Shown here one piece after another: positions 10,668 to 49,982 of a DNA stretch of 64,000 bases. The position numbers and the translations under genes were made by a program. Each line of letters starts with the position of its first letter. Position 1 is the first letter of the stretch. Origin of the DNA: Bacillota bacterium. Lineage in GTDB: Bacteria > Bacillota > Dethiobacteria > DTU022. Under the pieces are notes generated by a model. That model ran no database searches, was not told the origin of the DNA, and was given only the letters and a program-made list of their open reading frames with translations. Where the stretch lies: contig JAABTH010000007.1 in assembly GCA_011389985.1 (NCBI GenBank), positions 21,769 to 85,768 of the forward strand, written 5' to 3'.

Positions 10668-12743
10668 ATGAGCAAGGAAGCACAATTGAGCCAGATTAGA
10701 AATATTGGTATTGCTGCACATATTGATGCCGGCAAAACAACAACAACAGAGAGAATTCTTTTCTATACCGGGCGTTTGCACCGGTTGGGTGAAGTGCATG
10801 AAGGAACAGCTACTATGGACTGGATGGCTCAGGAACAGGAACGCGGTATTACGATTACTTCGGCTGCAACTTCCTGCCGGTGGCGCGATTTTTTAATTAA
10901 TATTATCGATACGCCCGGGCACGTGGACTTTACAGTTGAGGTTGAACGTTCATTGCGTGTTCTTGATGGAATGGTAGCAATCTTTTGCGCCAAGGGCGGG
11001 GTTGAGCCGCAATCGGAAACTGTTTGGCGTCAGGCTGATCGATACCATGTACCGCGATTGGCCTACATAAATAAAATGGATGCAGTTGGCGCAGATTTTT
11101 TCAGTGTGTTGGGCCAGCTTCAGGACAGGCTTCATGCTCATGCCCTTCCGCTTCAGCTTCCGGTTGGTACTGAAAGTGAATTTGCCGGGGTTATTGACCT
11201 TATTTCAGAGCGCGCAATTATATATGAAGATGATCTTGGCACGCGCAGTAACGAGAGCGATATTCCTGAAGATATGTTAGAATTGGTGGCTGAATATCGG
11301 GAGAAGATTCTTGAAGCAGTTGCTGATGTAGACGACTCTTTGATGGAAAAATACTTTAGTGGTGAAAAAATTAGTTCTGACGACATATATAAGGCATTGC
11401 GCAAGGCGGTTATCCATGATAATCTTGTGCCTGTTTTGTGTGGTTCATCATATAAAAATAAAGGTGTACAGCTGCTGTTGGATGCTGTTGTTAACCTTAT
11501 GCCTTCACCAGTTGACGTTGGCGCAGTAAAAGGGTTTAATCCCAACAACGGGGAGGAAGATTTTCGCTTGCCCGCAAATGATGCGCCTTTCGCTGCCCTG
11601 GTTTTTAAAATTATGGTGGATCCCTTTGTCGGTAAATTAGCTTTTGCCCGGGTTTATTCCGGTACGCTTGAAAAAGGATCGGTAGTCTACAACGCTGCGC
11701 GACAGAAGCGTCAGCGGATAGGACGCCTGATTCGCATGCATGCCAATTTCCGGGAGGAAATTGATCGCGCCACAACCGGTGATATTATTGGGATAATTGG
11801 TCCAAAAGAGATCAGTACCGGCGATACACTCTGTGCGCTCGATAAGCAGATTGTTTTAGAGAATATTCAATTTCCCGAGCCGGTTATTTCTATTGCTATC
11901 GAACCAAAAACTAAAGCTGACCAGGATAAAATGACTGTTTCTATGCAGCATCTGTCCGAAGAAGATCCGACTTTCCAGATTTACAGCGATAAGGAAACGG
12001 GACAGACAATTATATCCGGGATGGGCGAGCTTCACCTGGAAATCATAGTTGACCGTTTGCTGCGCGAGTTTAAAGTACAGGCTAATGTCGGCAATCCGCA
12101 GGTAGCTTACAAGGAAACTGTTTTAGGTGAAACATCTGCTGAAGGTAAATTTGTCCGTCAGTCAGGTGGACGCGGTCAGTATGGTCACGTTGTAATTGAG
12201 CTTTCACCGCTTGAATCAGGTGGCGGATTTGTTTTTGAAAACAAAATTGTTGGCGGAGCAATTCCGAAAGAGTTTATCCCTTCAGTGGAAGGCGGTTTGA
12301 AAGAATCAGCTTTAAACGGTGTTCTCTCCGGTTACCCGGTTGTAGATATCAAGGTTGTCTTGAAAGACGGTTCTTTCCACGAAGTCGATTCATCGGAAAT
12401 GGCATTCCGCATTGCCGCTTCAAAGGCGCTTAAAACTGCGCTATCCAAAGCGAAACCGGTACTTTTGGAACCGGTAATGAAAGTTGAAGTTACCGCTCCC
12501 GAGGAGTATGTTGGCGATATTATCGGAGATTTTACCAGCCGTCGCGGACGTATTCTCGGCACTGAGTTAAAAAGCGGGCTGCAGATAGTCAGGGGTGTAG
12601 TGCCTCTATCCGAAATATTTGGATACGCTACCGAACTACGTTCGCATACTCAGGGCCGTGGAGTATATAATATGGAGTTTTATCGTTATGAAGAGGTACC
12701 ACAGAGCATTGCTCAAAAAATTATCACTCAAAGCGGTGCTTAA
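10668..12743 (+). CDS. fusA: Elongation factor G
   Basis: 691 aa. The G1 motif [17 protein letters not shown], and EF-G domain IV/V sequences are present. Confidence 0.97.
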
Positions 12744-13968: not shown

Positions 13969-14073
13969 GTAATTTAAGTTAAGTAGCGATGAAGTAGAAG
14001 GTTGCCGGCAAAGCAGTCGGGGAATTTTTACGGAGCAGCTCTGATTTAATCAGGCGATAAGGAGGATTTGTTC

Positions 14074-42034: not shown

Positions 42035-42215
42035 TATTACAAATTAGCTGCAATTGAAAAGCCACCCCTCCAGATACATGGAAACGTGGCCTGTCGGCAT
42101 AGTCTCCTTTCCAATTACGGGAGGCAGGAGGATTTCTCCCCCAGCCCAGGCCTGTCACCATAGCGGGCTTAATGCTGTAGGTAAAAAGGCTCGGAGGCTG
42201 CTATTAATATACAGC
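42035..42215 (-). promoter_or_regulatory. Candidate molybdenum-cofactor (Moco) riboswitch in the leader of the moeA-moeA-moaA-mobB/moaC-mog operon
   Basis: The minus-strand transcript reads ...AGCAGCCUCCGAGCC...GACAGGCCUGGGCUGGGGGAGAAAUCCUCCUGCCUCCCG...GGAAAGGAGACUAUGCCGACAGGCC...CUGGAGGGGUGG. Distal segments CCUCC/GGAGG can close a P1 stem. GACAGGCC occurs twice. An extended -10 (TGTTATAAT) lies just upstream. It sits ahead of Moco-biosynthesis genes, which this riboswitch class is reported to control. Confidence 0.5.
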
Positions 42216-44021: not shown

Positions 44022-44073
44022 GACAAAACTTGATCATAGGTTAGGCTATTTGCATAAATCTGTCAAGTTTTAC
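44022..44073. promoter_or_regulatory. Inverted repeat in the marR / Memo-AMMECR1 divergent intergenic region (candidate MarR operator)
   Basis: AAAACTTGA (44025-44033) and its perfect reverse complement TCAAGTTTT (44063-44071), with flanking partial matches. Confidence 0.4.
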
Positions 44074-44212
44074 CGTTTGCATCTTTTCAACTATTGTTGA
44101 CAGTTCGTCTATTTGGTATACTGATAACAGGTAATTACTCTGACGGCCGGAGTTAATGACGGCCCTAACCCTCAACATTCAAACCTCCGGTTTTAAGGCA
44201 GGTGTTTAATTT

Positions 44213-45592
44213 ATGCTTTCAATAATTGGTATTGCTCCCCATCCGCCGATCATTATTCCCGACATTGGCCGCGGCGAATTAAGCAAAGTGAGCAAAACTA
44301 TAGACGGTATGCAGCAATTAAGTCAAAAAATTAAAGATAAATCACCGGAACTGTTAATTTTCATCACTCCACATGGGAATGTATTAAGAGAAGGTCCTGC
44401 TCTGTTAACCGAAAAGTATCTTACCGGTAATTTTGGACGCTTTGGTTTTCCGGACCTAAAAATGGAATTTGAAACTGACCAAAAATTGATTGATATCCTG
44501 CGAGAAGAAACATCTTCAGAACCAATTCAGCCGGTTTTCCTTGACAATGAAAATCATGCTATTAAGAATGATAATGCTTTAGATCACGGTGTTATGGTGC
44601 CTCTTTATTACCTGAAGAAGGCCGGAGTGAATCTGCCAGGTTTACATATAACATTTAGCTTTGACGCAAACAGAGATTTGTACAGTTTTGGTACTGCCCT
44701 CAGAAAGTCTATCGATAAAAGAGGTTTAAATACTGCAATATTAGCCAGCGGCGATCTTTCGCATCGCCTTATTCCGGGCGCCCCGGCCGGCTATACACCA
44801 CGCGGGGTTAAGTATGATCAATTATTGATAGAATTGCTTCGTGAGGGAAAGGTAGAAGAAGTATTAAATATTGATCCGCATTTAGTCGAAGATGCGGGTG
44901 AATGCGGTCTGCGTTCTTTCATAATTGCCCTTGGCACAATCGACGGTCAGGAATTCAGTACCGATATTATTTCATACGAAGGTCCTTTTGGGGTTGGTTA
45001 TCTGGTTGCCTCAATCGAACCGTTAAATAATAAAGGCGATACTTTGGCAAACGATGATAGTGAGAAGGTAAAGAGTCTTCCTGAACCGAATCCGGCATAT
45101 TTCGCCCGCCAGGTTTTGGAGAGCTACTACAGATATGGTCATATTCAAGAGCCTCCGGGCGAGTTGTCTTCACATTACCTGGATAAGGCAGGAGTCTTTG
45201 TTTCACTTAAAAAACAAGGAAGGTTGCGCGGTTGCATAGGGACATTTGAACCGGTCAGAAAAAACCTGGCCGCAGAAATTACCGCCAATGCTGTAAGTGC
45301 GGCAACAAGAGATCCCCGGTTTTCACCTGTTCGTGCAGACGAATTGCCTGAACTAGATGTATCTGTTGATCTTTTAAGCCCATTGGAAAAGGTTAGCAGT
45401 GAAAGTGAGCTTAATCCGAAAATATATGGGGTGTTTATTCGCAGCGGTCACCGCACTGGTCTTCTACTGCCGGATCTCGAAGGAGTAGATACTGTTGAAG
45501 AACAGCTTGGTATTGTCCGTCAGAAAGCAGGAATAAGACCTGCTGAAACGGCTGAATTATTCCGCTTTAAGGTTAGTCGCTACAGGGAATAA
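44213..45592 (+). CDS. AmmeMemoRadiSam system fusion protein: Memo/LigB-superfamily (class III extradiol-dioxygenase-like) domain plus AMMECR1 domain
   Basis: 459 aa. The N-terminal ~270 aa have the Memo/LigB-like pattern (IGIAPHPPIIIPD..., ITPHGNV). The C-terminal ~190 aa are clear AMMECR1 (GRLRGCIGTFEP...SAATRDPRFSPV...GLLLP). Confidence 0.8.
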   Translation: MLSIIGIAPHPPIIIPDIGRGELSKVSKTIDGMQQLSQKIKDKSPELLIFITPHGNVLREGPALLTEKYLTGNFGRFGFPDLKMEFETDQKLIDILREETSSEPIQPVFLDNENHAIKNDNALDHGVMVPLYYLKKAGVNLPGLHITFSFDANRDLYSFGTALRKSIDKRGLNTAILASGDLSHRLIPGAPAGYTPRGVKYDQLLIELLREGKVEEVLNIDPHLVEDAGECGLRSFIIALGTIDGQEFSTDIISYEGPFGVGYLVASIEPLNNKGDTLANDDSEKVKSLPEPNPAYFARQVLESYYRYGHIQEPPGELSSHYLDKAGVFVSLKKQGRLRGCIGTFEPVRKNLAAEITANAVSAATRDPRFSPVRADELPELDVSVDLLSPLEKVSSESELNPKIYGVFIRSGHRTGLLLPDLEGVDTVEEQLGIVRQKAGIRPAETAELFRFKVSRYRE

Positions 45593-45640
45593 ATCTGGGA
45601 TAAGTTTGACGGATTCTATTGTTTCGTGAGGAGAGATAAT

Positions 45641-46654
45641 TTGCACAAAGCGCTCTATTACCAGTATGAAGAAAATAAAATTCGCTGCCTTCTTTGTCCG
45701 AAATATTGCCTTCTTGGAGAAGGTCAGGTTGGGGTATGTGGAGTGCGGCTGGTTGAAGAAGGAGAACTCTATACGGCTAATTATAGCTGCCTGGCTGCTG
45801 CAAACTGGGATCCTGTGGAAAAGAAACCCCTGTATCATTATTATCCGGGTTATAAAATATTATCGCTTGGAACTATAGGTTGTAACTTTCACTGTACATT
45901 CTGTCAGAATTGGTCTCTGGCCCGTGGCAAGCAGGAACAGTGCGTAGAGATGATCAAGCCAGCGGCCGTTCTGGCCATGCTTGAACGCGAAGGAGACCCG
46001 GAACAGGTCCTGGGTGTAGCTTACACTTATAATGAACCGATGATCTGGTATGAGTTTGTTCTTGAAACTGCAAAACTTTTACACAGACATGGTTACAGGA
46101 ACGTGCTTGTTACCAACGGCTATGTAAATCCTGAACCGCTGAACGAACTTTTGCCTTATGTTGATGCCATGAATATTGATGTTAAAGGTTTTTCTGACCG
46201 TTTTTACCGTAAGTACTGTAAAGGTGAGAAAGAGCCGGTGATCAAAACAGTTGAAACTGCAGTAAAACACTGTCATGTAGAAATAACCTGCTTACTGATT
46301 CCAACCCTAAATGACGATATTGCCGAGCAGGAAGAACTGGCCCGTTGGATGGCCGGCCTTAGCCCGGATCTTGTTTTACATTATTCGCGTTATTTCCCGC
46401 AATACAAACTTGAATTGCCACCAACTCCTATTAGTGTCATGGAAGAATCAGTTAAAACCGCCAGGAAATATTTACGTTATGTCTACGCCGGTAATATTGA
46501 TTTGCCTGGAGCTTCTGATACATCCTGTCCGTATTGTAATAACCTGCTTATTTCCCGAAGCGGTTACAAGACGACGATTACGGGTGTTAAAGATGGGCAC
46601 TGTAACAATTGTGGCAATGCGGTAAAAATAATTATGCCTGAAGTGAGCGCTTAA
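45641..46654 (+). CDS. AmmeMemoRadiSam system radical SAM enzyme
   Basis: CNFHCTFC (CxxxCxxC) radical-SAM motif plus an N-terminal CLLCPKYC...C..C cluster typical of this system's SAM partner. The TTG at 45641 sits 5 nt after GAGGAGAG. The ORF-track GTG at 45626 is embedded in the SD. Confidence 0.8.
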   Translation: MHKALYYQYEENKIRCLLCPKYCLLGEGQVGVCGVRLVEEGELYTANYSCLAAANWDPVEKKPLYHYYPGYKILSLGTIGCNFHCTFCQNWSLARGKQEQCVEMIKPAAVLAMLEREGDPEQVLGVAYTYNEPMIWYEFVLETAKLLHRHGYRNVLVTNGYVNPEPLNELLPYVDAMNIDVKGFSDRFYRKYCKGEKEPVIKTVETAVKHCHVEITCLLIPTLNDDIAEQEELARWMAGLSPDLVLHYSRYFPQYKLELPPTPISVMEESVKTARKYLRYVYAGNIDLPGASDTSCPYCNNLLISRSGYKTTITGVKDGHCNNCGNAVKIIMPEVSA

Positions 46655-49781: not shown

Positions 49782-49982
49782 AATGATTCAGGGCAAAAGA
49801 TTATTTGGCTGTTAAGTTATTTATAGCGGGGGGAGACCTGTACTCCTCCTTAATTCTGTGACGGAAGTAGTTCTAACTTTTATTTTATACTGCCTCTGAG
49901 ACTTACATAGGTATAATGATCGATAAGCATTTGAAAAGAGTAGGTTTTTACTTACATATACAGGTAAACAGGGGGTTATAGA

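What the first reader, a model, noticed from the sequence alone, without database searches (positions are those of the whole stretch)
44213..46654. Compact AmmeMemoRadiSam system with the Memo/LigB-like and AMMECR1 components fused into one protein
Two adjacent same-strand genes encode (i) a 459-aa protein whose N-terminal half is a Memo/LigB-superfamily (class III extradiol-dioxygenase-like) domain and whose C-terminal half is an unambiguous AMMECR1 domain (LRGCIG...DPRF...GLLLP), and (ii) a radical-SAM enzyme with CNFHCTFC plus an extra N-terminal CxLCPxxC...C..C cluster. This trio co-occurs across bacteria and archaea (AMMECR1, the human Memo1 orthologue family, and a dedicated radical SAM), and its substrate and biological role are unknown. 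Here the B and A proteins are fused, which argues for a physical complex acting on one substrate. The operon sits between a marR/chrA unit and the cdaA-glmM-glmS cell-wall/c-di-AMP block. It is the best candidate in the window for an uncharacterised biochemical system.
Basis: partly seen in the sequence, partly recalled or inferred. Interest (0 to 1): 0.8.

Follow-up and report, generated by a model that had tools for sequence, protein, structure and literature searches.

The report
LigB–AMMECR1 fusion with radical-SAM partner
Two neighbouring genes encode a widespread enzyme pair of unknown function: a metal-binding LigB-type domain fused to an AMMECR1 domain, plus a dedicated radical-SAM enzyme. 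It is an ordinary member of a system that is already catalogued and annotated in hundreds of anaerobic bacteria.

Summary
ORF1 (44213-45592, 459 aa) is a LigB-type domain, a disordered linker and an AMMECR1 domain. ORF2 (probable start 45641, end 46654) is the AmmeMemoRadiSam radical-SAM enzyme, with three conserved cysteine clusters. Both pass NCBI's curated cut-offs (TIGR04335 130 vs 99 bits; TIGR04337 287 vs 220 bits).

The interpretation needs two corrections.

First, the N-terminal domain is not the Memo ("B") component. It scores 11 bits against TIGR04336 (cut-off 26) and gives no Pfam Memo hit. Its closest structures are TK2203, aminophenol dioxygenase and LigB, with MEMO1 at rank 37. 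It carries the LigB-type His/His/Glu metal triad. True Memo–AMMECR1 fusions exist elsewhere (Segatella, Ideonella), so this is a parallel variant without Memo.

Second, the fusion is not special:
- at least 8000 clusters at 90% identity share it
- 962 clusters at 50% identity match at E ≤ 1e-30
- at least 572 species genomes carry it, mostly strictly anaerobic Bacillota and Chloroflexota
- PGAP already names it
- the fusion was reported in 2007

No Memo gene and no third conserved partner lies in the window or in 87 related loci. No biochemical function has been found for the system. The mechanism I propose, an oxygen-independent, radical-initiated modification of one shared substrate, is inference. 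Interest is low to moderate.

The parts
44094..44122 (+). Putative sigma-A promoter: TTGTTG, 17 nt, then the extended -10 TGgTATACT
   Evidence: Read from the sequence. The block ATTGTT...ATTTGGTATACT is conserved at the same distance from the start codon in L007, whose protein is 58% identical. The consensus scan missed it because the -35 hexamer matches only 3 of 6 positions. Inferred, not shown.
44196..44205 (+). Ribosome-binding site of ORF1 (AGGCAGGTG)
   Evidence: Sequence. Conserved as AAGGAAGGTG in L007.
44213..45592 (+). ORF1: 459-aa LigB-type–AMMECR1 fusion protein. PGAP would name it 'AmmeMemoRadiSam system protein A'.
   Evidence: ORF. Pfam LigB 155 bits and AMMECR1 157 bits. TIGR04335 130.3 bits vs cut-off 99. 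AlphaFold2 model with mean pLDDT 89.9.
44213..45028 (+). N-terminal LigB-type (class III extradiol-dioxygenase-like) domain, residues 1-272. Conserved residues: H10, H54, D124-H125, D181, H184, E230, C231.
   Evidence: Pfam PF02900 covers residues 8-265. Invariant columns are listed. A profile alignment to aminophenol dioxygenase beta (3VSG/3VSH) places H10, H54 and E230 on its iron ligands H13, H62 and E251 (ligand identities from PMC11081632). Best Foldseek match is 5HEE (TK2203), E 7e-19, TMt 0.87.
45029..45082 (+). Variable, disordered interdomain linker, residues 273-290
   Evidence: pLDDT below 50 for residues 273-290. This region is unalignable and variable in length across 40 homologues. 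It is where five related loci carry a true gene fission.
45083..45589 (+). AMMECR1 domain, residues 291-459, with LRGCIG (C341), DPRF and LLP motifs
   Evidence: Pfam PF01871 covers residues 297-456 at 3e-46. PDB sequence matches to 1ZQ7 and 1VAJ. Foldseek matches 1ZQ7 and 1VAJ at E about 1e-15 to 1e-16. The motifs are invariant. A catalytic cysteine in RGChG was predicted in PMC2034487.
45628..45635 (+). Ribosome-binding site of ORF2 (GAGGAGAG), 5 nt before TTG 45641
   Evidence: Sequence.
45641..46654 (+). ORF2: AmmeMemoRadiSam system radical-SAM enzyme (amrS type), 337 aa. The longest ORF starts at GTG 45626.
   Evidence: TIGR04337 286.7 bits vs cut-off 220. Pfam Radical_SAM 75 bits. The gene call on the 99% identical contig L001 gives 337 aa. 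The closest solved relative is PFL-activating enzyme.
45686..45739 (+). N-terminal C-x2-C-x3-C-x9-C motif of ORF2, a candidate auxiliary metal or Fe-S site
   Evidence: Translation. All four cysteines are present in 62 of 62 orthologues. The motif is shared with amrS of Segatella and Ideonella.
45881..45904 (+). Canonical radical-SAM C-x3-C-x2-C motif (CNFHCTFC)
   Evidence: Translation. Conserved in 62 of 62 orthologues.
46526..46612 (+). C-terminal C-x2-C-x21-C-x2-C motif, resembling a zinc ribbon
   Evidence: Translation. Conserved in 58-59 of 62 orthologues. Present in Ideonella amrS and absent from Segatella amrS.

Best explanation
This is a two-gene operon, probably co-transcribed, of the AmmeMemoRadiSam type. 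It belongs to the common subtype that has no Memo protein. Protein 1 joins a LigB-clade metal domain to an AMMECR1 domain through a floppy linker. The metal domain carries a His10/His54/Glu230 triad, a catalytic-type His184 and an invariant Cys231. The AMMECR1 domain carries the conserved Cys341 of RGCIG. Protein 2 is the dedicated radical-SAM enzyme of the system (amrS type). It is related to PFL and NrdG activases, and has the canonical CX3CX2C cluster plus two further Cys4 sites.

The LigB-type domain occupies exactly the position that Memo holds in genuine Memo–AMMECR1 fusions, which are followed by the same radical-SAM enzyme. I therefore take it to be Memo's functional counterpart.

Proposed mechanism (inferred, not shown):
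1. The three modules form one complex acting on one substrate.
2. The radical-SAM enzyme cleaves SAM and abstracts a hydrogen atom.
3. The AMMECR1 cleft holds the substrate, and Cys341 serves as a covalent or thiyl relay.
4. The LigB-type Fe(II) site chelates and transforms a (hetero)aromatic or enediol-like group without O2, since the hosts are strict anaerobes.

The most likely substrate class is a nucleobase in RNA or a nucleotide-derived metabolite, in a housekeeping role.

My probabilities:
- identity and architecture: about 0.9
- one complex acting on one substrate: about 0.6
- O2-independent chemistry: about 0.5
- a nucleobase or RNA substrate: about 0.25

The single confidence value given (0.55) is a compromise between the well-supported identity and the weakly supported chemistry.
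For: Identity:
- Curated models are passed for protein A and the radical-SAM enzyme. Pfam finds LigB, AMMECR1 and Radical_SAM.

Catalytic residues retained:
- H10, H54, H184 and C231 are invariant in 40 homologues, and E230 is present in 37 of 40. RGCIG, DPRF and LLP are invariant.
- The triad aligns with the iron ligands of 3VSH.
- The three cysteine sets of the radical-SAM enzyme are conserved in 58-62 of 62 orthologues.

Genetic coupling:
- The two parts are fused in 83 of 88 loci, and are adjacent genes in the other 5.
- A radical-SAM orthologue lies within the fetched flanks in 79 of 88 loci, and on the same strand as the fused gene in 75 of the 83 fused loci. Most lie directly downstream, with a median gap of 23 nt.
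- No third conserved partner gene was found.

Co-transcription here:
- The gap is 33-48 nt with its own ribosome-binding site. No terminator and no stable hairpin lies between the genes.

Functional equivalence with Memo:
- Segatella hominis and Ideonella dechloratans encode Memo(TIGR04336)–AMMECR1(TIGR04335) fusions directly followed by amrS. That amrS has the same N-terminal CxxCPxxC...C motif.

Anaerobic hosts:
- Named carriers include Moorella thermoacetica, Desulfofundulus, Syntrophomonas, Pelotomaculum, Natroniella, Fuchsiella, Dehalococcoidia and Ca. Formimonas. That these are strict anaerobes is my own knowledge.

Nucleobase idea:
- The AMMECR1 RAGNYA fold, its predicted catalytic cysteine and the radical-SAM/dioxygenase context led Balaji & Aravind to propose an RNA base modification (PMC2034487; PMC4075521).
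- TYW1 and RlmN are among the weak PDB hits of the radical-SAM enzyme.
- In Bacillota the cassette sits at a conserved position after the ribosomal-protein, truA and rplM-rpsI block.
Against: - No experiment on any member was found. Only two papers in the searchable library mention both AMMECR1 and radical SAM, and both are computational.
- The ribosomal-gene neighbourhood is shared synteny within one phylum and may carry no functional signal.
- The nearest relatives of the radical-SAM enzyme are protein-directed activases: NrdG at 55 bits, PflA at 53 bits, and PFL-AE in the PDB. Related radical-SAM domains occur in peptide-processing systems (PMC7159879). This favours a protein or peptide substrate.
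- An intact 2-His-1-Glu site is what a real O2-dependent dioxygenase would have.
- The interdomain geometry is not confidently predicted (pTM 0.62, disordered linker). A physical channel between the sites is therefore unproven.
- Five loci with ample flanking sequence lack a nearby radical-SAM gene.
- Whether a Memo gene exists elsewhere in this genome is unknown.
Confidence: 0.55

Rival explanations
1. Protein-directed activase model. The radical-SAM enzyme acts on the fusion protein itself, as PFL-AE and NrdG act on their partner enzymes. It would either install a radical or post-translationally modify a residue such as Cys341, Cys231 or a neighbouring Gly. The modified LigB–AMMECR1 protein would then be the actual catalyst.
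For: - The next-best families for ORF2 are glycyl-radical activases: NrdG2 5.7e-15, PflA 2.5e-14 and YjjW activase 3.5e-12.
- The best solved relative is PFL-activating enzyme.
- The gene pairing is strictly one-to-one with no third partner.
- Related radical-SAM domains occur in peptide-processing systems (PMC7159879).
- Invariant Cys-Gly pairs are present in both domains of protein 1: RGCIG and ECG.
Against: - All activase models score far below their cut-offs (55 vs 131 bits, 53 vs 232 bits).
- Protein 1 has no RVxG-type glycyl-radical motif at its C-terminus.
- The same activase-like clade includes enzymes that act on small molecules and RNA. QueE appears and TYW1.
Confidence: 0.2
2. Canonical three-component system. 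A separate Memo (protein B) gene lies elsewhere in the genome and is still required. The LigB-type domain would then be an additional fourth module, not a replacement for Memo.
For: - The TIGRFAM definition of the system has three proteins.
- The window covers only 64 kb of the genome.
- Some family members give weak Pfam Memo hits, so annotation alone could hide the distinction.
Against: - No Memo homologue was found among 3352 ORFs from the whole window and 87 related loci. Queries were human MEMO1 and two bacterial Memo domains.
- In canonical and Memo-fused systems the Memo part is adjacent or fused.
- The LigB-type domain occupies exactly Memo's position in the otherwise identical architecture.
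Confidence: 0.15
3. Lipid or isoprenoid-modifying system. The three modules modify an aliphatic isoprenoid or membrane lipid rather than a nucleobase.
For: - To my recollection, Burroughs et al. 2019 (J Biol Chem) link Memo-clade contexts to isoprenoid modification. I could not retrieve the paper.
- A polyprenyl synthase lies two genes downstream in Calderihabitans.
- PcrB lies within ±8-10 kb in 4 loci, including the window.
Against: These neighbours occur in only 1-4 of about 84 loci. The polyprenyl synthase association did not recur in the clustering.
Confidence: 0.08
4. Ordinary aromatic-catabolic extradiol dioxygenase. The N-terminal domain cleaves a catechol or aminophenol with O2, and its linkage to AMMECR1 and the radical-SAM enzyme is incidental.
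For: - The LigB-type metal triad and catalytic histidine are intact.
- The best named NCBIfam model is HpaD, 3,4-dihydroxyphenylacetate 2,3-dioxygenase.
Against: - HpaD scores 38 bits against a cut-off of 316.
- No aromatic-pathway genes recur nearby.
- The hosts are overwhelmingly strict anaerobes.
- The fusion to AMMECR1 and the adjacency to the radical-SAM enzyme are conserved across phyla, so they are not incidental.
Confidence: 0.04

Closest known systems
LigB–AMMECR1 fusion proteins annotated 'AmmeMemoRadiSam system protein A' in Bacillota and Chloroflexota, with their adjacent radical-SAM gene. Examples: Calderihabitans maritimus P0112, Moorella thermoacetica L039, Dethiobacteria P0026.
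   Same: They have the same two-domain architecture, length (about 440-470 aa) and invariant residues, and the same downstream radical-SAM gene. The window's proteins are plain orthologues, 45-65% identical.
   Different: There is no difference in kind. Only the flanking genes differ. This lineage has marR-chrA upstream and cdaA downstream, a context seen in 9 loci. The more common context is cwlD upstream with argC or peptidase M29 downstream.
Canonical AmmeMemoRadiSam system (TIGR04335 A, TIGR04336 B = Memo, TIGR04337 radical SAM), and its Memo–AMMECR1 fused form ('amrB' + 'amrS' in Segatella hominis and Ideonella dechloratans)
   Same: The AMMECR1 module and the radical-SAM enzyme are the same, including the N-terminal CxxCPxxC...C motif. 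The layout is also the same: a PCAD/Memo-superfamily domain N-terminal to AMMECR1, with the radical-SAM gene next.
   Different: The N-terminal domain here belongs to the LigB clade, not the Memo clade:
- TIGR04336 scores 11 bits here, against 231-255 bits in the true fusions.
- Glu occupies the third metal-ligand position, where Memo has Cys.
- No Memo gene was detected nearby.
TK2203 of Thermococcus kodakarensis (PDB 5HEE) and class III extradiol dioxygenases (aminophenol dioxygenase 3VSH/8IHG, HpaD 8IQ8, LigB 1BOU)
   Same: The fold matches (Foldseek E 7e-19 to 9e-12; TMt 0.87 for 5HEE). The positions of the two histidines, the glutamate and the catalytic histidine also match.
   Different: - The domain here is fused to AMMECR1 and coupled to a radical-SAM enzyme.
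- It has an invariant Cys-Gly immediately after the Glu ligand, which none of those enzymes has.
- It is found in strict anaerobes.
- TK2203 is not next to the Thermococcus AMMECR1 gene, TK0174.
Archaeal and eukaryotic stand-alone AMMECR1 (PH0010 1VAJ, MM0484 1ZQ7, human AMMECR1)
   Same: The fold and the RGChG and DxRF motifs match.
   Different: Those proteins are single-domain. In archaea they are linked to NFACT and a PIN-type RNase rather than to a radical-SAM enzyme.
Pyruvate formate-lyase activating enzyme and NrdG (glycyl-radical activases)
   Same: They are the closest characterised relatives of ORF2, with the same CX3CX2C core.
   Different: ORF2 scores far below their cut-offs. It has extra N- and C-terminal Cys4 modules, and no glycyl-radical enzyme is its partner.

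Membership tests
AmmeMemoRadiSam system | Protein A: AMMECR1-family protein above the TIGR04335 cut-off | tested here: met
   130.3 bits against a cut-off of 99, residues 297-456
AmmeMemoRadiSam system | Dedicated radical-SAM enzyme above the TIGR04337 cut-off | tested here: met
   286.7 bits against a cut-off of 220, covering profile positions 5-329 of 349
AmmeMemoRadiSam system | Protein B: Memo homologue (TIGR04336 / Pfam PF01875) encoded in the system | tested here: not met
   - The N-terminal domain scores 11.3 bits against a cut-off of 26.
- No Pfam Memo hit at E ≤ 10.
- No Memo homologue in the 64-kb window or in 87 related loci.
- The rest of the genome could not be examined.
AmmeMemoRadiSam system | Components encoded adjacently on one strand | tested here: met
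   The gap is 33-48 nt with no terminator. A radical-SAM orthologue lies within the fetched flanks in 79 of 88 loci, and on the same strand as the fused gene in 75 of 83 fused loci, mostly directly adjacent.
AMMECR1 family (Pfam PF01871) | Pfam model above the gathering score, and the AMMECR1 fold | tested here: met
   157.3 bits against 25. Foldseek matches 1ZQ7 and 1VAJ at E about 1e-15 to 1e-16.
AMMECR1 family (Pfam PF01871) | RGChG motif with the predicted catalytic Cys, and the DxR-aromatic motif (Balaji & Aravind 2007) | tested here: met
   R339-G340-C341-I342-G343 and D367-P-R369-F370 are invariant in 40 homologues. The motif definition comes from PMC2034487.
LigB / class III extradiol dioxygenase (Pfam PF02900) | Pfam model above the gathering score, and the LigB fold | tested here: met
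   155-157 bits against 26.3. Foldseek matches 5HEE, 8IHG, 3VSH, 8IQ8 and 1BOU.
LigB / class III extradiol dioxygenase (Pfam PF02900) | 2-His-1-carboxylate iron ligands and the catalytic His | tested here: met
   H10, H54 and E230 align with H13, H62 and E251 of aminophenol dioxygenase beta. H184 lies in the SH motif aligned with its SHW (ligands from PMC11081632). E230 is Gln in 3 of 40 homologues.
LigB / class III extradiol dioxygenase (Pfam PF02900) | O2-dependent extradiol ring-cleavage activity | not testable with these tools
   This needs an enzyme assay. The best specific model, HpaD, scores 38 bits against a cut-off of 316.
Memo family (Pfam PF01875) | Pfam or TIGR04336 model above cut-off | tested here: not met
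   - No Pfam hit.
- TIGR04336 scores 11.3 bits against 26.
- hhalign against verified human MEMO1 gives probability 0.4%.
- No Memo chain was found in the PDB with the family profile at E ≤ 10.
Memo family (Pfam PF01875) | His-His-Cys metal site (MEMO1 H49/H81/C244) | tested here: inconclusive
   The profile alignment puts Glu230 at the position equivalent to C244. The next residue is an invariant Cys231-Gly232, which resembles the ACG of bacterial Memo.
Radical SAM superfamily | CX3CX2C cluster motif and the Pfam PF04055 core | tested here: met
   CNFHCTFC is conserved in 62 of 62 orthologues. PF04055 scores 75 bits against 29.5.
Radical SAM superfamily | Reductive SAM cleavage to 5'-deoxyadenosine | not testable with these tools
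   This needs anaerobic biochemistry.
Glycyl-radical enzyme activases (PflA, NrdG) | Score above the curated cut-off of an activase model | tested here: not met
   NrdG2 scores 55.2 bits against 131. PFLA scores 53.2 against 232. YjjW scores 46.3 against 250.

The most novel reading that the evidence does not exclude
The LigB-type, Memo-less form found in strict anaerobes is an oxygen-independent metalloenzyme. A 2-His-1-Glu iron site with an adjacent invariant Cys would work with a radical-SAM enzyme and the AMMECR1 cysteine. Together they would carry out chemistry not yet described, such as anaerobic opening or rearrangement of a heteroaromatic ring or nucleobase. Solving this would give the first biochemical function for both the AMMECR1 and the Memo families, which include human disease-linked proteins.
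Probability: 0.2. Interest if true: 0.7.

Novelty: already known. Interest (0 to 1): 0.25.

Why it matters
AMMECR1 and Memo are ancient, widely conserved protein families with human disease links and no established biochemical activity. Their bacterial partnership with a radical-SAM enzyme is the best available handle on what they do. That open question is real.

This window adds only one more ordinary copy of an arrangement that is already described, modelled and annotated in hundreds of species.

The one useful clarification concerns which two-gene form this is. There are two parallel forms: Memo–AMMECR1 + AmrS, and LigB-type–AMMECR1 + AmrS. This locus is the LigB-type form. That supports treating Memo and this LigB-clade domain as interchangeable metal modules. 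Because the carriers are strict anaerobes, it also argues against an O2-dependent role.

Tried and rejected
- A genome-collection scan with patterns from the single protein found nothing. It worked only with the alignment.
- The key survey paper (Burroughs et al. 2019, J Biol Chem) could not be retrieved by DOI or by a guessed PMC id. What I say about it is from memory.
- hhalign of the family alignment against human MEMO1 gave no signal.
- phmmer with MEMO1 and two bacterial Memo domains gave only noise-level hits. The best were to the fusion proteins themselves.
- One 288-aa ORF (L084) with a weak MEMO1 score turned out to be a YitT membrane protein.
- I considered that TK2203, the closest structure, might be the archaeal split form next to AMMECR1. 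I rejected this because the Thermococcus AMMECR1 gene is TK0174.
- I looked for a third conserved partner and found none:
  - Amidase_3, ribosomal proteins, truA, ecf, argC/J and cdaA recur only as phylum-level synteny.
  - Peptidase M29 (9 loci), MGMT (5), Moco genes (4), PcrB (4) and polyprenyl synthase (1 genome) are sporadic.
- I found no riboswitch or structured leader. Rfam gave no hits, and fold z-scores ran from +0.5 to -0.8.
- I checked whether the five 'split' loci were frameshift artefacts or recoding. They are true fissions, with TAA or TGA in the linker followed by a ribosome-binding site and ATG.
- I checked plasmids for mobility. No full-length match was found.

Full report
**Observation**

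The two ORFs are real and lie where stated: 44213-45592 (+, 459 aa) and 45626-46654 (+, 342 aa from GTG). ORF2 more probably starts at TTG 45641. A GAGGAGAG ribosome-binding site ends 5 nt before that codon, and the gene call on a 99% identical metagenomic contig (L001) gives 337 aa.

**Family tests**

- The C-terminal half of ORF1 matches Pfam AMMECR1 (157 bits) and the curated AmmeMemoRadiSam protein A model TIGR04335 (130.3 bits, cut-off 99).
- ORF2 matches the radical-SAM model of the system, TIGR04337 (286.7 bits, cut-off 220), and Pfam Radical_SAM.
- The N-terminal half of ORF1 matches Pfam LigB (155 bits), not Memo.

**The N-terminal domain belongs to the LigB clade, not the Memo clade**

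- Tested alone at E ≤ 10, it hits only LigB in Pfam.
- It scores 11.3 bits (E 0.15) on the protein B model TIGR04336, whose cut-off is 26.
- A PDB sequence search finds TK2203 (5HEE), HpaD and aminophenol dioxygenases, but no Memo.
- A profile of 37 such domains finds the same set more strongly (5HEE at 9e-27). It still finds no Memo at E ≤ 10.
- hhalign against human MEMO1 gives probability 0.4%. I first verified that MEMO1 sequence as identical to PDB 7KQ8.
- An AlphaFold2 model was built (mean pLDDT 89.9, linker 273-290 disordered, pTM 0.62). By Foldseek it matches 5HEE best (E 7e-19, target-normalised TM-score (TMt) 0.87), then aminophenol dioxygenases, HpaD, DOPA dioxygenases, DesB and LigB. 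MEMO1 appears only at rank 37 (TMt 0.59).
- The profile alignment places family residues H10, H54 and E230 on H13, H62 and E251 of aminophenol dioxygenase beta. Those are its iron ligands, and they are equivalent to LigB H12/H61/E242 and MEMO1 H49/H81/C244 (PMC11081632).

So the site is the LigB-type 2-His-1-Glu triad. There is one family-specific feature: the residue after the Glu is an invariant Cys231-Gly232. This resembles the 'ACG' of bacterial Memo domains. Which of Glu230 or Cys231 faces the metal could not be settled without model coordinates.

**The other two modules**

In 40 homologues the AMMECR1 motifs R339-G-C341-I-G343, D367-x-R369-F370 and L418-L-P420 are invariant. These are the predicted active-site motifs of Balaji & Aravind (PMC2034487).

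In 62 orthologues of ORF2, three cysteine sets are conserved:
- C16/C19/C23/C33, in 62 of 62
- the radical-SAM set C81/C85/C88, in 62 of 62
- a zinc-ribbon-like set C296/C299/C321/C324, in 58-59 of 62

The closest characterised relatives of ORF2 are glycyl-radical activases, all far below their cut-offs. PFL-activating enzyme is its closest match in the PDB.

**Operon structure**

- The gap between the genes is 33-48 nt and contains a ribosome-binding site.
- No plus-strand terminator was found between or after the genes.
- No stable hairpin was found (z-scores +0.48 for the gap and -0.78 downstream).
- No Rfam family matched.
- A plausible extended -10 promoter (TTGTTG-17-TGgTATACT, 44094-44122) is conserved in the 58%-identity relative L007.

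Co-transcription is therefore likely but not shown.

**How common the arrangement is**

All 120 listed hits have the same LigB+AMMECR1 architecture at about 440-520 aa. Many are already named 'AmmeMemoRadiSam system protein A'.
- Against representatives clustered at 50% identity there are 962 hits at E ≤ 1e-30. Nearly all of the best 150 are full-length fusions.
They are mostly Bacillota: Syntrophomonadaceae, Peptococcaceae, Moorella, Desulfofundulus and Halanaerobiales. Also represented are Chloroflexota/Dehalococcoidia, Actinomycetota, Armatimonadota and Desulfobacterota-like MAGs. As far as they are named, these are strict anaerobes (my own knowledge).

**Survey of 88 loci**

- The two domains are fused in 83 loci.
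- In 5 loci they are adjacent genes, created by an in-frame TAA or TGA in the linker followed by a ribosome-binding site and ATG. These are true fissions.
- A radical-SAM orthologue lies within the fetched flanks in 79 of the 88 loci. In 75 of the 83 fused loci it is on the same strand as the fusion gene, usually directly downstream (median gap 23 nt). In the Chloroflexota loci it lies directly upstream.
- No Memo homologue was found in any of the 3352 ORFs, including the whole 64-kb window. Queries were human MEMO1 and two bacterial Memo domains.
- No third gene is consistently linked. The recurrent neighbours reflect the conserved Bacillota gene order that the window also shows. These are cwlD-like amidase, rplM-rpsI, truA, ecfAAT, argC/J, and in 9 loci cdaA or chrA.

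**A parallel architecture**

A plasmid search turned up genuine Memo–AMMECR1 fusions in Segatella hominis and Ideonella dechloratans.
- They score 231 and 255 bits on TIGR04336, and 158 and 188 bits on TIGR04335.
- They are annotated amrB, and amrS follows directly.
- Their amrS shares the N-terminal CxxCPxxC...C and CNFxCxxCQN motifs with ORF2.

In this window a LigB-clade domain occupies Memo's slot. This is the strongest argument that the two metal domains are functionally interchangeable in this system.

**Literature**

Balaji & Aravind (2007) already reported AMMECR1's persistent neighbourhood with a radical-SAM enzyme and a ring-opening dioxygenase. They also reported gene fusions with the latter, and proposed an uncharacterised RNA base modification using the conserved cysteine. 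This was repeated in 2014. AMMECR1 is listed among top-priority uncharacterised archaeal families. In the searchable library only two papers mention both AMMECR1 and radical SAM, and both are computational. 'AmmeMemoRadiSam' appears only as an annotation label. I found no experimental characterisation.

**Mechanism**

Shown by sequence:
- a radical-SAM core that looks catalytically competent, with two extra Cys4 sites
- an intact LigB-type metal site
- an intact AMMECR1 motif set
- very tight genetic coupling of the three modules, with no further partner

Inferred:
- The three modules form one complex on one substrate (about 0.6).
- The radical-SAM enzyme initiates the reaction by hydrogen abstraction.
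- The AMMECR1 cleft and Cys341 hold or relay the substrate.
- The Fe(II) site binds and transforms a chelating (hetero)aromatic group without O2, because the carriers are anaerobes and radical-SAM enzymes are oxygen-labile (about 0.5).
- The substrate is a nucleobase or nucleotide-derived molecule (about 0.25).

Rivals, in order of weight:
- The radical-SAM enzyme is a protein-directed activase acting on protein 1 (0.2).
- A Memo gene elsewhere in the genome is still required (0.15).
- The substrate is a lipid or isoprenoid (0.08).
- The N-terminal domain is a plain aerobic dioxygenase (0.04).

**Verdict**

The system assignment is correct. The claim that Memo is fused to AMMECR1 is inaccurate at family level, and the implied rarity is wrong. 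This is an ordinary orthologue of a known, annotated and functionally unsolved system. It is not novel, and its interest is low to moderate because the underlying biochemical question remains open.

**Limits**

- Only 64 kb of this genome, and ±8-10 kb of the others, could be examined.
- The 2019 J Biol Chem survey of the PCAD–Memo superfamily could not be read.

Noticed in passing
window 42088-42208 (- strand): A Moco (molybdenum/tungsten cofactor) riboswitch scores 68.6 bits against a gathering score of 36. It lies upstream of the minus-strand genes moeA, moeA-PBP, moaA, mobB-moaC and MOSC-MoCF, and directly downstream of the split chrA pair. The 'chromate transporter' pair next to a Moco regulon might be related to oxyanions such as molybdate or tungstate.
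   Followed up: no
window 44025-44033 / 44063-44071: A perfect 9-nt inverted repeat, AAAACTTGA-N29-TCAAGTTTT, lies in the divergent marR–ORF1 intergenic region. It is a candidate MarR operator. MarR is adjacent to the cassette in only 3 loci.
   Followed up: partly
window 44147-44152 / 44185-44190 (5' leader of ORF1): CCGGAG and CTCCGG lie at -66 and -28 from the start codon. They are conserved at identical positions in L007 (58% protein identity) and absent from the other 84 loci. They could form a leader stem ending just before the ribosome-binding site. Folding is not better than shuffled sequence (z-score +0.45), and no Rfam family matched.
   Followed up: partly
L010, L022, L047, L065, L073 (linker region of the fusion gene): In five genomes the LigB-type and AMMECR1 parts are separate adjacent genes. 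An in-frame TAA or TGA in the linker is followed by a ribosome-binding site and ATG. These are natural fission variants of the fusion.
   Followed up: yes
L023, L034, L041, L043, L047, L058, L074, L081, L085: In the Chloroflexota/Dehalococcoidia loci the radical-SAM gene lies directly upstream of the fusion gene, not downstream. L023 also has a short extra AMMECR1-like ORF at 10741-10971.
   Followed up: partly
L031, L051, L056, L057, L063: Five loci have at least 5 kb of sequence downstream of the fusion gene but no radical-SAM orthologue within the fetched flanks. The partner gene may lie elsewhere or be absent in these genomes.
   Followed up: no
L088 3056-5473 (Segatella hominis), L089 3044-5536 (Ideonella dechloratans): These are true Memo–AMMECR1 fusion proteins on large non-mobilizable plasmids or chromids. 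PGAP names them only 'amrB', and amrS follows directly. The Segatella amrS lacks the C-terminal zinc-ribbon-like Cys4 module.
   Followed up: yes
database entries P0005, P0008, P0015, P0021 and others: JGI names several LigB–AMMECR1 fusion proteins 'MEMO1 family protein'. The window orthologue fails the Memo models. This looks like a propagated misnomer.
   Followed up: partly
window 49782-49982: No glmS ribozyme, nor any other Rfam family, was detected upstream of glmS or around cdaA-glmM, even at E ≤ 1. Many Bacillota carry a glmS ribozyme at this position (my own knowledge).
   Followed up: partly
window 1-33000: The window opens with rpoB and rpoC, followed by the ribosomal-protein operons, ecfAAT, truA and rplM. 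These assignments rest on ORF sizes and on synteny with annotated loci. An S10-Clostridia leader lies at 13981-14060. The cassette sits in the origin-proximal housekeeping region typical of Bacillota. No species genome in the collection is closer than about 57% identity for the fusion protein.
   Followed up: no
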